A stretch of 64,000 nt of DNA from Eledone cirrhosa (lineage: Eukaryota), in NCBI GenBank assembly GCA_964016885.1, contig OZ024746.1, forward strand, positions 22,010,001 through 22,074,000. Direction: 5' to 3'. The notes beneath the pieces are model-generated. The model was not told the origin of the DNA, did not search any database, and saw nothing but the letters and a program-made list of their open reading frames with translations. Made by a program: the position numbers and the translations under genes. Within the stretch, counting starts at the first letter, position 1. Every line of letters starts with the position of its first letter. Shown here piece by piece: positions 7,445 through 58,092 of this stretch.

Positions 7445-7643
7445 ATATGAAAAGAGTCAGGCCCCCGTCGGCTAAGCTCCAGCCGTTTCAACAGCTAGAT
7501 CTGAATTCGGATCTAGCTTTCGAAACGGCTGGAGCTCAGCCATCGAGGTCCTGAATCTTTTCATATTACTCACTCTACTACCCTAAATATCAAGTACTCT
7601 GGTGGGTTATGGTCCACCTGGTATTTTACCACAACCTATCTGA
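7445..7643 (+). mobile_element. PLE-like terminus: 122-bp palindrome (7445-7566) plus ~75-bp tail
   Basis: Arms centred on GAATTC (7503-7508). The tail tattactcactctactaccctaaatatcaagtactctggtg is homologous to the 57691 copy. Contains a hammerhead 3'-half motif. Confidence 0.7.
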
Positions 7644-7887: not shown

Positions 7888-8265
7888 ATATTGTTATACT
7901 TTGGGAGGGTCATGTTGCCAATAAGAAACACATGCACCAGTTGCTTTCACTTCAATTTATTATAATAAATTTATAAATTTAGGAATTTATAAATTTCCGG
8001 TTGGTTGGTTGGTTCCACAACCAGATGGTTGTTTATATATTGTCAATATTGACAATATATAAACAACCATCTGGTTGTGGAACCAACCAACCAACCGGAA
8101 ATTTATAAATTCCTAAATTTATAAATTTATTATAATAAATTGAAGTGAAAGCAACTGGTGCGTGTGTTTGTTATTGGCAACATGACCCTCCCAAAGTATA
8201 ACAATATCGGTTTCAACAGACGTTTTCAGATAAAGAATCTTGCTAAACAAATTCAGAAACCAAAT
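7888..8265. repeat. 320-bp near-perfect spacerless palindrome (7888-8207) plus a one-sided extension
   Basis: Centre between 8047 and 8048 (tgtcaat|attgaca). I see only 2 mismatches between the arms. Lies between (TA)n tracts. Confidence 0.95.
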
Positions 8266-24800: not shown

Positions 24801-25000
24801 ATGGTTTCTGATTTAGGCACAAGGCCAACAGTTTTAGAAGAGGGGAAATTCGATTAAATCGACCTCAGTGTATTACTAGTACTTTATTTAATCGCCCCTG
24901 TAATGATGAAAGGCAAAGCTAATCTCGGCGCGATTTGTACCCAGAACACAAAGGGACGTAACTATATGCCACAAAGCATGTCTGACGCTCTTCTGCTACT
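24800..25000 (-). mobile_element. SINE family A (long variant)
   Basis: Matches family A, with an extra ggggaaattcgattaaatcgacc segment. Confidence 0.8.
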
Positions 25001-25265
25001 GCCTATATAGATATGAATATATATGCGTTCAGTTCACCTTATTTATCACACCTTATCTTAGTTCCCTATTTCTATTCCATCTTCCAAGATTCCCTACATA
25101 CCTTCATCTTCCCAGATTCCCTACCTAAACAAACAACAAAACATCAAACCTTTTAAATTAGGTTTATTTGGTTTTATTGCATTTTAGTTTATTTCATCTT
25201 ACCTCATTCTTTCCTGCTTATTTAACATTGTCTTGAACTGCACGCAACTACGACTATTGTATATA

Positions 25266-25512
25266 CAGGGCGGTTGATTTGCAGTATCGGTAGAGGGTCG
25301 GACACCATGCTTTGCAGCAAAGAGTTACGGCCCTTTATCGTCTGAGCTCAAATCCCGCCGAGGTTAACTTTGCCTTTCATCCTTACGGAGTCGATAAAAT
25401 AAAGTACCAGTAATACACTGATATAATTGCTGGCCTTGTGCTAAAAGTAGAAGTGTCTCCAAAAATGCATACACACTTTTATTAGAATGCTGTTTTTTGG
25501 GGGGACACCCTG
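25266..25512. mobile_element. SINE A (25269-25452, +) inside a tiny Tc1/mariner-type MITE
   Basis: ta-CAGG[SINE]GTGTCTCCAAAAA … TTTTTTGGGGGGACACCCTG-ta. Confidence 0.55.
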
Positions 25513-28621: not shown

Positions 28622-28803
28622 AATAATTGTTTCTAATTTAGGCACAAGGCCAGCAATTACCCATTGCATTACTTCTACTTTATTTTATCGACCCCATAAG
28701 GATGAAAGGCAAAGTCAACCTCGGCGGGATTTGAACTCAGATCGTAAAGGCACGTAACTATGCTGGAAAGCATGGCGTCTGACCCTCTACTGATACTGCC
28801 AAT
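28622..28803 (-). mobile_element. SINE family A copy
   Basis: Matches the consensus. ttaaataat occurs at both ends. Confidence 0.9.
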
Positions 28804-29073
28804 TAAATAATATACATTATTAAGAAAGCTATGATGAAACAAAGTCATGTGTGTGGTAGGGTGCTAAACTGTAGTTATGTCATTTAATACTTGCACGAAT
28901 TTGTTTCCCCATAACTTTCTTAATAGTACATATTTTTAAAAGAAATGTTGCAGAGATACGTTTTCTATGACGCAGATTACGATTATGTTGATAGTCCCTT
29001 TACGTTCTGGGTTCAAATGCCGCCTAGGTTAGCTTTGTCTTTCATCCTTATGGGGCCGTTAAAATAAAGTGCC

Positions 29074-44580: not shown

Positions 44581-45695
44581 CAGTGGCGGACTGGGTCTAA
44601 AAGTATTGGTTGCCAGGAGATGAAGGGGGCCCACCTACATATAGAATGCTATCATTTAATTTTTATAATGAATAAATAACATTTTCGAAAAATACATAAG
44701 TGGAAACAAAACAGTGCAATCAAATTTTTTGCGGAGAAATATTACGTATTTTGCGAAATCTAGAGACTTTCAATAATGACCAGAAGTTTACCCTAAGTAT
44801 TACTAATAGCTCTAGGAAAGCCATGAACGATACCACACCTTTTTAACTTTGATTTTTAAAGTAGGTTTATAATTATCAATTTTCATTATACTTTTGTAGC
44901 TGTCTCAGTGGCCTAGTTGGAGGAATCATAGACGGTGGTGATCCTGGTCTGAAGTTCGATCCTGGTCGAGAGTAGGGTTCCCGGTAAACCTTCTCAGTTT
45001 TTTTCTATTGGTAGTAAAATAAAAACTGAAAAAGGTTACATGTACCTGTTGACCAGGATTGAACCCAAGACCAGGATCTCCACTGTCTCTAGTACCTACC
45101 ATTGGGCCACAGCGACAACTACGAAAATCTCATGAAAATTCATACTTATAAACCTACTTTTAAAATTTTCAAACCAAAGTGTTGTGGTGTCGTTCATGTC
45201 TTTCTTAATGTTATTGCTCCTACTTAAGGTCGACTTCTAAATCATTTGAGTGTTCCATAAACTACATCCTCGTTTTGTTTCTCATCTATCTAGACGATAT
45301 TTTAACCTGTAATCCATGTTTCATTTCTGTTGCACCTCATCCCCTCCTCCTCTCTGTCTATATGTGTATGTTTGCATGCATTAATGAATACACTAAGATT
45401 TAGATTTAGTAGAATGTACAACCACTGATTCCAGCTATTTGCACTCACATATATTTTGGTTTCTAGTAATTCCCTGGGGAATTGGTTGACCAAATGCTTT
45501 GCTTAATTGCTTTATTTATTTATTTTTCTTTTTTTTTTTCTTTTAGATTTCAGGTATTTTTTGAAAGCAAAGCATTGGCCCCTAAAATACTACAGTGAGC
45601 CCTGCAATGCTACTGTGAGCTCTTGCAATGCTACCAAGGGCCCCTGGGGCCAAATTGCCATTAGGCAACCTGGCAACCAGGCCAGTCCGCCACTG
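44581..45695 (+). mobile_element. complete non-autonomous hAT DNA transposon (1115 bp)
   Basis: 14-bp TIRs CAGTGGCGGACTGG / CCAGTCCGCCACTG and a perfect 8-bp TSD tacacata (44573-44580, 45696-45703). No transposase ORF. Confidence 0.92.
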
Positions 45696-51995: not shown

Positions 51996-52894
51996 TTATT
52001 TGTCTGTTAGAGTTCACATATGTACACATGAAAATTGCTGCATCCAGTAAGATGCCTGCAAGTCATTGCAGCAAGTGTGTTGGTTTGCCTCAATAATTAT
52101 TAGAAAGGAAACTCCTGCATCCCTTGTTTCATGTGATTCCTTTTAAACATAAATTATGCTTATTTGAATTAATTTTATTTTAAAAATTGGTCAAGTTTAT
52201 ATAGAAGGCAAAAATGATGTCACACCGCTACTATGACTCCTACCAATGTTATTTTTCCAAACTCAAGAAAGTGTTTAAATATAAGTTTGAAAGCAGAGGC
52301 AACAGAGAAGTTTCAGGTAGATCCTGTCAACAAAATCTCTATAAGGTTTAAATACACAAGTCTCCGATATCCAAATGGCTAAATGTCAGTAGAAGTGCGG
52401 CCAGGAGTGATGACCATGTAAGTAGTTAAGGGCTGAAACACTTGCATGGGACAGGTTTCTTCTCTGAAAACCCTCTGCTGTCCAGCTCTTCTTAGAGTTT
52501 CTTGCCACTTATATAAGAGAAGCTACAATAACTTATGTAATTCTAAATATTTGTGAAACACTTAATTCGTTTGCCTTGGAAACTTTCAGTTTGCAAAGAA
52601 AATGCCTACATTGTTCCAAGTTTATTTTTAAAAGTAAACTACAATCCAGAGTTGATGTTGTACCAGATTGTATTATCAGCTTTTACATAAGTGTTTATGG
52701 GTGTCATATGTACATACACACAACACATACACTGACATTTGTGTCGGGATTTCTCTGTCTGTTTCTACATGTATGTATCTATATCTATCTATTTTTCTCT
52801 CTATATGTATATGTATATGCAACTGTACTTACACATTCCATACACAGATATGTGTGTGTGTATGTGTGTGCATATATGTGTGTATATATATATA

Positions 52895-53156
52895 TCATCA
52901 TTTCATCATCAGTTCATTTTACGTCCGCTTTTTCCCTGCTTGCAAGGGTGGGACGGGAACTGATGCTGGCTTGATTTCTACAGCTGGATGCCCTTCCTAA
53001 CACCAACCTCATTTACAGTGAGTGCTGGGTGCTTTTTTTTCCGTGGCACCTCCACAACCACTTTGCAGTGGAATGATATGGACCCCAGTCCCTATCATCT
53101 CATTTCTACAGCTGAGTAAACTGGAGCAATGTGAAATAAAGTGTCTTGCTCAAGGA

Positions 53157-53202
<46 letters not shown>

Positions 53203-53363
53203 GTCGTGTAGGTGCCACGGAAAAAAAGCACCCAGCACTCACTGTAAATGAGGTTGGTGTTAGGAAGGGCATCCAGCTGTAGAAATCATGCCAGAACCAG
53301 TTCCTGTCCCACCCTTGCAAGCAGGGAAAAACGGACGTAAAATGATGATGATGATGATGATGA
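52895..53363. mobile_element. two inverted SINE B fragments separated by (TA)n
   Basis: Minus copy 52895-53159 and plus copy 53199-53363, near-identical over ~160 bp. Confidence 0.9.
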
Positions 53364-54215
53364 TATATATCCCAGTTTGGAGAGCAGGCCATGTAATGAT
53401 GATGATGATGAACAAAGTGAACACTTTTCTATCCTCCATTGAGCAATGCCACTAATAACCATCTAGCCCTCCCACTCAGTCAGCTAACATAACAATCATA
53501 ACTGCTAACACCAACACCATTACCACCACCATCACCACTATCATCATCACCATCACCATCAGCACCACCACCACTGCCTCCCAACACCATCATGACCACC
53601 ACCACCACTGCCTCCCAACATCATCACCACCACCACCACCACCACTACCATCATTATCATTATCATCACCATTACACATCATTTCAACAGATGTTAGTTT
53701 GTTAGAAAGTGTTACATTCTTAATTTCCACTGTATTAAATCTTTCCTTCCTCTACACTGTACAACACATTCTCACTCATACTCCACACTCACACTCCACA
53801 CTCACACTCAACACACACCACACACCACACTCGCACATTAATTCATTTATTTTATAACTTCATTTCCTCTGGTTGTTATATTTCACAATCAATAAGCTTA
53901 GTTGAGTTAACTACCACTAACTGGATGTTATCAATGACACCTACATAGGTGGAATAAGGTGCACCAGTTGCAGTAGTAGTGCTGCTGCTGTTGCTGTTGC
54001 TGTTGCTAGTGCTGCTGGTGTTGCTGTTGGTGTTGCTATTGCTGCTCGTGTTGGTGCTGTTGGTGCTGCTGCTTGGAGATATATTAATAACTAAGAGCTA
54101 AACACATTCCTTTACTGTGGCTCAAAACTTCTCTCTCTCACTCTCTCTCTCTCACTCTCACTCTGTCTCTCTCTGTCTCTCTCTCTCTCTGTCTCTTTCT
54201 CTCTCTCTGTCATAG

Positions 54216-56038: not shown

Positions 56039-56213
56039 TAATATTTGTGCCAAAAGTAGAAACAATTATATATATATAATACATAATTATCATCATCATC
56101 GTTTAATGTCTATCTTCCATGCTATATATATATGATGATAATTATGTATTATATATATAATTGTTTCTACTTTTGGCACAAGGCCAGCAATTACACACTG
56201 CATTACTGAACAG

Positions 56214-56467: not shown

Positions 56468-56966
56468 AAACTGTATTATATATGTATATAAATTGTATAC
56501 ATATATGTAATATGTATGTTTATGTAAAATTATGTATATATGTATATAAATTGTTTATGTACAATGTGTGTCGGCTTAAATATACCAGCTGATGTATACA
56601 TGCCAGAATGTTTTAAGGCCATTTTCTCTGTTAAAGCAGGTTAATCCTTGTGTGTGTGTGGGGGGGGGGGGGGGGCTGGAAAGCTTCTTCACTTTGCCCT
56701 ATCAGCTGCACCCCTAGCTTTCTTTCTCTTCTTCATCTTTTGCCATGTCTAAGTATCTGTCATCATCATCATCATCACATACACACACAGCTGTTTCTTT
56801 CATGCTTGCATGGGTTGAACAGGTATTTTCCAGTACACCATGTTTGTGTGTGTGTAAATATATATATATATATAACCAAAGATTAATATGGTTCATTGAT
56901 TACTCAATGAATATAGTTTTACAATAGATTAAAAGCACTCTACCAGGAAGTTTTCTGGAGTTATTA

Positions 56967-57245
56967 ATATTATTCAGAATATAAATAAATGAAGACATTC
57001 ACATAATCAAAATATATGTTTTATTATATATATGTCGAAGGAACTGTGCTGTTTTTTCAGTACGTCCTCGTCAGATAAAATACATGAATTTTATCTGAAA
57101 TTTTATGAATTTTATCTAAAATTCAAGTATTTTATCTGACGAGGACGTACTGAAAAAAAACACCACAGTACCTTCGAAATATATATAATAAAACATATAT
57201 TTTGATTATGTGAATGTCTTCGTTTATTTATATTCTGAATAATAT
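56967..57245. mobile_element. ~280-bp inverted repeat; PLE pseudo-LTR-like element
   Basis: Arms of ~120 bp (56967-57090 and 57120-57245), each carrying a hammerhead motif. One-sided extension at ~56875-56966. Confidence 0.75.
57130..57193 (+). ncRNA. type I hammerhead ribozyme with a minimal, palindromic stem III
   Basis: Stem I UUUUAU/AUAAAA. Core CUGACGA at 57136-57142. Stem II GGACGUACUG/CAGUACCUUC (9 of 10 pairs). GAAA at 57176-57179. Stem III region AUAUAUAU. Predicted cleavage after AUA at 57187. Confidence 0.75.
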
Positions 57246-57254
57246 ATATATATA

Positions 57255-57655
57255 TCATCATCATCATTTCATTTACGTCCACTTTTTCCCTGCTTGCAAG
57301 GGAGGGACGGGAACTGATTCTGGCTTGATTTCTACAGCTGGATGCCCTTCCTAACACCAACCTCATTTACAGTGAGTGCTGGGTGCTTTTTTGCCGTGGC
57401 ACCTCCACGACCACTTTGCAGTGGAATTATAGGGACTGGAGTCCCTATATACATGTGGAGGCACATAGCTTAGTGGTTAGAGCATTGGCCTTGCAATCGA
57501 AAGGTTGTGAGTTCAATTCTCAGACCGGGTGATGTGTTGTTTCCTTGAGCAAGGCACTTTATTTCACATTGCTCCAGTTTACTCAGCTCTGAGAATTGAA
57601 CTCACAACCTTTCGATTGCAAGGCCAATGCTCTAACCACTAAGCCATGTGCCTCC

Positions 57656-57657
<2 letters not shown>
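57255..57657 (-). mobile_element. SINE B with an internal inversion and duplicated head
   Basis: Minus tail 57255-57447, plus-strand head 57455-57588, minus head 57589-57657. Confidence 0.85.
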
Positions 57658-57690
<33 letters not shown>

Positions 57691-57691
<1 letters not shown>

Positions 57692-57871
57692 GAACCAAAT
57701 GAACCATAACGCACCAAAGTACTCAATACTTAGGATAGTAGAGTGGGTAATAGGAACGAGTAGGACCCCGACGGCTGAGCCCAAGCCGTTTCGATGGCTA
57801 ATTCTGGACTAATTCAGAATTAGCTGTCGAAACGGCTTGAGCTCAGCCGTCGGGGTCCTACTCGTTCCTAT
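57691..57871 (-). mobile_element. second PLE-like terminus: 122-bp palindrome (57750-57871) plus tail
   Basis: Homologous to the 7445 element. Contains GAAA-CGGCU-loop-AGCC-GUC. Confidence 0.75.
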
Positions 57872-57881
57872 AAATATATAT

Positions 57882-58092
57882 ATCATCATCGTTTAACGTC
57901 CATGTTCCACGCTTGCATGGGTTTGGACGGGAGTTTTCCCACTTGAGGCAAGATTGGTTGTCTTGCTCGCATAGGACTGTCTGGCGGGTTTTCTACAGTT
58001 GGATGCCCTTCCTAACACCAACCACATTTACAGTGTGGGGCAGGGAGGTTTTTACCGTGTTGCCTACACGGCCACATTACAGCGTGGACTGT
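57882..58092 (-). mobile_element. RTE LINE 3' UTR copy
   Basis: Reverse complement of ~60220-60430. Confidence 0.9.

What the first reader, a model, noticed from the sequence alone, without database searches (positions are those of the whole stretch)
57691..57871. Half-hammerhead palindrome that folds back where stem II would be
Seen: the 122-bp palindrome contains GCUGUC-GAAA-CGGCU-(UGAGCUC)-AGCC-GUC-GGGGUCCUACUC (GAAA at 57829-57832, C17 at 57851). This is a perfect hammerhead 3' half with a 6-bp stem III and a GUC triplet. The CUGAUGA half is replaced by the mirror image, and the symmetry axis lies where the stem II loop would be. Inference: during reverse transcription the cDNA snaps back on the stem II hairpin and self-primes. 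The ribozyme structure would then fix the inversion point and be destroyed at insertion.
Basis: partly seen in the sequence, partly recalled or inferred. Interest (0 to 1): 0.75.

Follow-up and report, generated by a model that had tools for sequence, protein, structure and literature searches.

The report
Penelope stubs mark start, ribozyme cut
This palindrome is one of about 10,000 tiny head-to-head stubs of a Penelope-like jumping gene; it likely folds where the element's capped RNA starts, inside the ribozyme's loop, rather than by snapping back on the ribozyme's stem, and rarer stubs that end exactly at the predicted cut site suggest the ribozyme does cut in the animal.

Summary
Observation confirmed; mechanism not. 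The 122-bp palindrome is one of at least 9,567 short head-to-head insertions of a Hydra-clade Penelope-like element (PLE) in (TA)n, with the PLE tail on one arm only (73 of 75). Parents exist (1,662 matches): a type I hammerhead with a UGANAA core (U3-A8 in 66 of 100 listed; literal CUGANGA in 2 copies) and a 37-39 nt loop II. The axis lies in that loop, but the product of a stem II snap-back occurs 0 times. Arms stop at two initiator-like adenines, often with a non-templated G; template jumps use the same point; one copy runs from there into the ORF. Best reading: reverse transcription from both target ends runs off the capped RNA start, which lies inside the ribozyme, and the two cDNAs are joined. 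In a separate class of 380 palindromes, 27 of 50 listed end at the predicted GUC cut, suggesting cleavage in vivo. No RNA data. The scan reported this before on other DNA of this genome, probably for this family. New variant of a known kind.

The parts
57750..57871 (.). 122-bp palindrome: two head-to-head copies of the front of a PLE RNA
57691..57812 (-). Long (tail) arm: from 2 nt before the inferred RNA start (+1 A = 57810) through the hammerhead 3' half (GAAA 57792-57789, C17 57770) into the tail; ends at about +120
57691..57749 (-). PLE tail, on one arm only (about 77 nt in intact copies; the last 18 nt are missing here, with (GA)n in their place)
57815..57871 (+). Short arm: starts at +5 of the inferred RNA and ends at the inner end point (about +60), where it runs into (TA)n
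57829..57856 (+). Hammerhead 3' half: GAAA 57829-57832, stem III 57832-57850 with a near-palindromic loop, C17 57851, stem I 3' strand 57852-57856
   Evidence: sequence; same fold in parents
57807..57814 (.). Apex: end of the long arm plus 2 filler bases; differs from copy to copy
57656..57690 (.). Left flank: (TA)n then (GA)n
57872..57883 (.). Right flank: (TA)n target remnant

Best explanation
The palindrome is a stub insertion of a Hydra-clade Penelope-like retrotransposon, likely made when both ends of a cut (TA)n target each primed a cDNA on the front of the element's RNA and both cDNAs ran off the RNA's 5' end, which is likely a capped transcription start lying inside loop II of the element's hammerhead. 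Shown by sequence: family identity, the parent ribozyme, two fixed outer end points (about +60 and +138), tail on one arm, inner ends piled at two adenines (+1 and -4), variable apexes. Inferred: that +1/-4 are capped Pol II starts; that the two arms are two separately primed cDNAs, usually from one RNA or one source locus; that they are joined by microhomology or filler. The RNA's leading copy would carry only the 3' half of the ribozyme and so could not cut itself in cis. A complete ribozyme exists only in the downstream copy or in read-through RNA; its 3' cleavage product would still carry both priming sites and would give the rarer stubs centred on the cut site.
For: Family: long copies carry an ORF with RWR, DKT, YRDD, CxCx5C, a C-terminal GIY-YIG-like motif, CxxC and CxH, the Hydra diagnostics of PMC8557442. 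L214 reads short inverted arm, +2, ribozyme half, tail, ORF; ATG at about +232. Census of the first 100 exact arms: 60 short mirrors, 24 with the parent 5' half, 16 other. In 75 palindromes the tail is on exactly one arm in 73, and no arm matches the parent beyond -4. In the first 50 of 1,988 palindromes with both arms reaching +1, the next cDNA base is A 75, C 17, G 6, T 2 of 100 (hand tally). C (a G before +1) and T are never templated there. At cut-site ends C:T is 6:17 (hand tally); Fisher p 4e-5, or 3e-3 without 1-nt fillers. Both adenines sit in initiator-like words with a TATA-like word about 29-31 nt upstream (consensus recalled). Template jumps land at the same point in L214 and L215, and foreign elements are joined there in 7 of the 20 loci (a selected set). 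The tail arm is longer in 34, shorter in 27, equal in 10 of 71 (p 0.44). L074 has arms of two subfamilies. In vitro a PLE protein cuts and extends both strands and starts at two internal sites that bound the tail (PMC11167929); D. virilis Penelope starts transcription in its pLTR (PMC2377424).
Against: No RNA evidence: the start site and cap are read from DNA only. C also appears at presumably uncapped cut-site ends (6 of 46), so the G is enriched at +1, not unique to it. Most arms that reach +1 continue with A's that fit both the parent's -4 start and non-templated A addition. Arms agree in subfamily in 71 of 75 palindromes and share 14 rarer variants, which fold-back copying would also give; only 1 of the 4 discordant pairs differs at several sites. 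Arm-length symmetry could be blurred by later deletions at the apex. The TATA-like word is imperfect and varies among subfamilies. The hammerhead fold of parents is 5-9 kcal/mol above the minimum-energy fold in 5 of 5 tested, and 34 of 100 listed parents have a C3-A8 mismatch. All samples come from the first places of contig C1.
Confidence: 0.75

Rival explanations
1. One priming event at the tail end; the cDNA reaches the RNA 5' end, folds back on itself by short microhomology (not on stem II), copies itself to +60 and anneals to the (TA)n target.
For: Arms concordant in 71 of 75; 14 shared rarer variants; both arms carry the G in 7 of 50, 1.4 expected; microhomology at 28 of 71 apexes.
Against: Predicts the tail arm always reaches further 5'; it is shorter in 27 of 71, by 3 nt or more in 15. 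L074 has arms of two subfamilies. Kilobase-long inverted pairs have the same two outer ends.
Confidence: 0.11
2. The fixed inner end is not a transcription start but a processing site or a stop of the enzyme in loop II, for example a 3' splice site (the sequence reads U-rich then YAG) or a nuclease-sensitive loop.
For: YAG is kept in the subfamilies listed; PLE 5' UTR introns are known and one ends at helix I of the D. virilis ribozyme (PMC4209133).
Against: Arms start at the A of AG or 4 nt before it, not after AG; no constant upstream exon or leader appears in the 50 apexes or the 50; the non-templated G is enriched there.
Confidence: 0.09
3. The palindrome is itself a mobile unit (SINE- or MITE-like) that arose once and is copied whole.
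For: Very high copy number and 93-96% identity among the best hits.
Against: Apexes differ from copy to copy; both arms track four subfamilies of the long element in parallel; either arm may be the one cut short. Some re-copying of stubs is not excluded.
Confidence: 0.03
4. One reading: the cDNA snaps back on the stem II hairpin and self-primes, so the ribozyme structure fixes the inversion point.
For: The axis lies within the parent's loop II and is non-random.
Against: The predicted product, mirror arm followed by the native loop, has 0 exact matches against 9,567 palindromes; arms stop about 25 nt short of the stem II 5' strand; non-mirror partners are joined at the same point.
Confidence: 0.02

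Closest known systems
Hydra clade of C-terminal EN+ Penelope-like elements (Craig et al. 2021, PMC8557442; passages seen)
   Same: RWK-like, DKT, CxCx5C linker, CxxC and CxH motifs, (TA)n targets, hammerhead in the pLTR, inverted 5'-truncated copy, tail at one end.
   Different: Tail about 77 nt rather than 30-40; unit about 3.6 kb rather than under 3 kb; ribozyme has a U/C3-A8 core and a 37-39 nt loop II; the commonest product is a 200-bp stub ending at one point.
Poseidon PLE of Anolis carolinensis, PAc (Frangieh et al. 2024, PMC11167929; parts 1-2 of 4 read)
   Same: AT-rich target, both strands extended, two internal start sites of reverse transcription that bound the tail, downstream of the ribozyme cut.
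   Different: Other clade; its ORF starts within the ribozyme (here about +232); the authors found no RNA reads ending at the cut site, whereas here genomic stubs end there.
PLE hammerhead variants (Cervera and De la Pena 2014, PMC4209133; parts 1-2 of 4 read)
   Same: Type I topology, G10.1-C11.1 pair, 5-bp helix I, palindromic loop III, U3-A8 covariation (seen in Schistosoma PLEs).
   Different: Helix III is a stable 6 bp, as in fungal and protist PLE ribozymes rather than the minimal animal form; loop II is very long and holds the inferred start site.
Drosophila virilis Penelope promoter (Schostak et al. 2008, PMC2377424; passages seen)
   Same: Transcription starts within the pLTR at an initiator; inverted terminal repeats of variable size.
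   Different: TATA-less internal promoter with an intron there; here a TATA-like word lies upstream of the inferred start and no intron was seen.
Animal non-LTR retrozymes (bioRxiv 10.64898/2026.07.22.740005; part 1 of 5 read)
   Same: Short non-coding PLE-related sequences with type I hammerheads.
   Different: Retrozymes are head-to-tail arrays with a whole ribozyme in each unit; this is head-to-head with half ribozymes.

Membership tests
EN+ Penelope-like element insertion | Linked ORF with RT and C-terminal GIY-YIG endonuclease | tested here: met
   710-aa open stretch in L112 with YRDD and VIY...YIG; by motifs only, Pfam gave 0 families
EN+ Penelope-like element insertion | Inverted 5'-truncated copy at the 5' end | tested here: met
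EN+ Penelope-like element insertion | Tail at one end only | tested here: met
   73 of 75; 15 of 15 loci near the cut site; longer than the usual 30-40 bp
EN+ Penelope-like element insertion | Partial tandem repeats forming pLTRs | tested here: met
   L214, L215
Hydra clade | RWK-like motif, DKT, CxCx5C linker, CxxC and CxH in the endonuclease | tested here: met
Hydra clade | (TA)n targets | tested here: met
   165 of 174 tail ends are followed directly by (TA)n
Hydra clade | Placement in the clade by an RT tree | not tested
   no reference proteins fetched
Type I hammerhead ribozyme (this copy) | Core 5' half upstream of stem II | tested here: not met
   absent in the window copy
Type I hammerhead ribozyme (parent) | Three helices around a core with a 3-8 pair, G10.1-C11.1, GAAA and NUH | tested here: met
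   U3-A8 in 66 of 100 listed parents, C3-A8 mismatch in 34 (hand tally); helices drawn; not the minimum-energy fold
Type I hammerhead ribozyme (parent) | Self-cleavage after C17 | not testable with these tools
   indirect only: 27 of 50 listed palindromes end at or within the G run right after C17 with filler
Non-LTR retrozyme | Head-to-tail units each with a complete hammerhead | tested here: not met
   head-to-head halves; tandem copies in L215 also lack the 5' half

The most novel reading that the evidence does not exclude
This PLE places its capped transcription start inside its own hammerhead, so the RNA's leading end carries a split, disarmed ribozyme while the trailing copy is whole. 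Thousands of twin-primed stubs form a genomic record of both the cap site and the in vivo self-cleavage site. The very long loop II could also let the 5' half at the RNA's far end pair with the 3' half at its front, forming a ribozyme that removes the cap.
Probability: 0.4. Interest if true: 0.7.

Novelty: new variant of a known kind. Interest (0 to 1): 0.5.

Why it matters
What PLE hammerheads do, and how PLEs build inverted ends and tails, are stated as open questions (PMC8557442); the one in vitro study saw no RNA ends at the cut site (PMC11167929). Stubs that stop at the predicted cut are indirect evidence of cleavage in the germ line, and stubs that stop at the inferred start give base-level predictions for 5' RACE. 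The insertion architecture itself is known, and this copy is an ordinary, slightly decayed member.

Tried and rejected
Rfam at gathering threshold found no hammerhead in the window. Searching CTGANGA within 30 nt upstream of the arm gave 20 hits, none a parent: they are apex filler or foreign elements. ACCCY-CTGANGA with a short stem II gave 0; with the native stem II, 2 copies. Pfam gave 0 families for the ORF. No RNA holder listed for the parent stretch. Contigs of four runs of unrecorded kind showed a summed depth step near +1 in two runs of one organism, but contig depth is not copy number and I draw nothing from it. A 3' splice-site reading was considered and given low odds. Fossil A-to-G editing was not seen in this family's arms: A>G in 4 of 85 private and 0 of 14 shared variants over 49 columns of up to 82 palindromes. 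The script returned nothing and was redone. Rows dropped: 1 of 76 palindromes (arm not parsed); 4 more (2 without a tail, 2 of a diverged subfamily). In one search, 23 of 50 rows were not counted as cut-site ends: 14 are explained by CG or CGG microhomology and 9 extend into stem III. Literature searches (listings only, open-access library) showed no paper placing a PLE start site inside the hammerhead or using stubs to map the cut. Supplements were not opened; those of PMC8557442 may already list this family and its ribozyme.

Full report
Observation. The sequence is as described: a 122-bp palindrome at 57750-57871 with GAAA at 57829-57832, a 6-bp stem III, C17 at 57851 and GGGGU after it, and no CUGANGA upstream. 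A further 59 nt (57691-57749) continue only the left arm. (TA)n lies on both sides.

Family size. The host is an animal-sized genome of 3.0 Gb; an earlier scan note calls it octopus, which I did not test. A 37-nt arm word has 16,578 exact matches. Short palindromes with both arms exact and an apex of up to 30 nt number 9,567. Among the first 100 exact arms on contig C1, 60 face a short mirror, 24 continue into a long shared 5' sequence and 16 do something else.

The parent. The long form reads ACCCC, then U/C-UGANAA, G, a 2-by-1 internal loop, CGGCUA, a 37-39 nt loop, UAGCCG and the 3' half seen in the window; 1,662 matches (fold). The core is U3-A8 in 66 of the 100 listed and C3-A8 in 34 (hand tally); U3-A8 is a described PLE variant (PMC4209133). 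Literal CUGANGA before the native stem II occurs twice. [quoted passage not shown] L214 shows the order directly: short inverted arm, start point, ribozyme 3' half, tail, ORF. Counting from the A of AGUCC as +1, C17 is +41, the inner end point about +60, the tail end +138 and the ATG about +232; the unit is about 3.6 kb. Long copies also come as inverted pairs kilobases apart with the same two outer ends, so the window's element is the shortest common member of one series.

Testing the snap-back. A cDNA that self-primes on stem II must first copy the whole loop and the 5' strand, so the apex should hold the native loop. That product has 0 exact matches. In 75 palindromes no arm matches the parent beyond -4; the longer arm most often stops at +1 or +2 (40 of 75). 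Apexes differ between copies: microhomology 28, filler 27, blunt 16 of 71. The same point is used when the cDNA jumps to another template (L214, L215) or is joined to foreign elements (7 of 20 selected loci). So the point is a property of the template's end, not of a mirror hairpin.

Why a transcription start. In the first 50 of 1,988 palindromes with both arms reaching +1, the next cDNA base is A 75, C 17, G 6, T 2 (hand tally). A and G can be templated; C and T cannot. C means a G in front of +1, as expected from copying a cap (established for other retroelements; recalled). At ends that map to the ribozyme cut, C:T is 6:17 (p 4e-5, or 3e-3 without 1-nt fillers). The A class mostly reaches the adenine at -4, and some of these also carry the G. 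Both adenines sit in initiator-like words, with a TATA-like word about 30 nt upstream (consensus recalled). Against: C is not absent at cut ends, A runs are ambiguous, and no RNA was available.

One priming or two. The tail is on exactly one arm in 73 of 75, the PLE signature that PMC11167929 ties to two internal start sites used on both target strands. Fold-back from a single first strand needs the tail arm to reach further; it is longer in 34, shorter in 27 and equal in 10 of 71. L074 has arms of two subfamilies. But 71 of 75 pairs agree in subfamily, 14 rarer variants are shared, and both arms carry the G in 7 of 50 against 1.4 expected, so both arms usually come from one RNA or one source; fold-back with later apex deletion is not excluded.

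The ribozyme cut. Prompted by earlier scan notes, I searched for palindromes centred near C17: 380. Of the first 50, 27 have both arms ending at or within the G run right after C17 with non-templated filler, 14 are explained by CG or CGG microhomology and 9 extend into stem III (hand tally). All 15 that I viewed have the one-sided tail and (TA)n flanks.

Mechanism. Inferred: RNA starts capped at +1 or -4 inside loop II, so its front holds only half a ribozyme. The protein cuts (TA)n, primes one strand at +138 and the other at about +60, both cDNAs run off the cap, are trimmed or extended by a few bases and joined head to head. Priming on the downstream copy of the same signals gives the long inverted copies and needs uncut RNA; cut RNA gives the rarer cut-site stubs.

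Comparison and verdict. It is a member of the EN+ PLE insertion class and by motifs of the Hydra clade; the window copy is not a ribozyme and not a retrozyme. The architecture is known. A start site inside the hammerhead and stubs that map the cut did not appear in the listings of my searches, with supplements unseen. The scan reached the same reading on other DNA of this genome; my reading of the start site was written before that look-up (notes), and those notes are unchecked, not support. New variant of a known kind; interest 0.5.

Noticed in passing
window 7445-7620: Second, diverged copy (about 80% identical) of the same architecture, with a different loop II end and the tail on one arm.
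   Followed up: partly
window 56962-57252: Another 290-bp palindrome whose arms carry CUGACGA followed by GGAC, probably a stub of a different hammerhead-bearing PLE family that keeps the core's 5' half.
   Followed up: no
window 57446-57666: A tRNA-derived SINE (Rfam tRNA hit 57466-57523) also inserted as a head-to-head pair between (TA)n runs, suggesting the same enzymes copy SINE RNAs.
   Followed up: no
window 7888-8207, 44782-45238, 52888-53370, 56045-56181, 24865-25421, 28677-29070: Further fold-back or inverted pairs of unrelated sequence, several beside (TA)n.
   Followed up: no
L032 and L043, at the arm's 5' junction: The arm is joined to another family with a canonical CUGANGA hammerhead that is itself inverted: a template jump between families.
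   Followed up: partly
L215:417-1100: Three head-to-tail 257-nt units, each restarting at the inferred +1 after a T run: partial tandems made by repeated jumps.
   Followed up: partly
L116:3956-6097 (- strand): A 714-aa open frame of a different PLE type (YVDD, C-terminal GIY-YIG-like) next to a family copy.
   Followed up: no
listing, e.g. L088, L089: About a third of parents have C3 opposite A8, predicted to weaken the ribozyme, yet this subfamily is abundant.
   Followed up: partly
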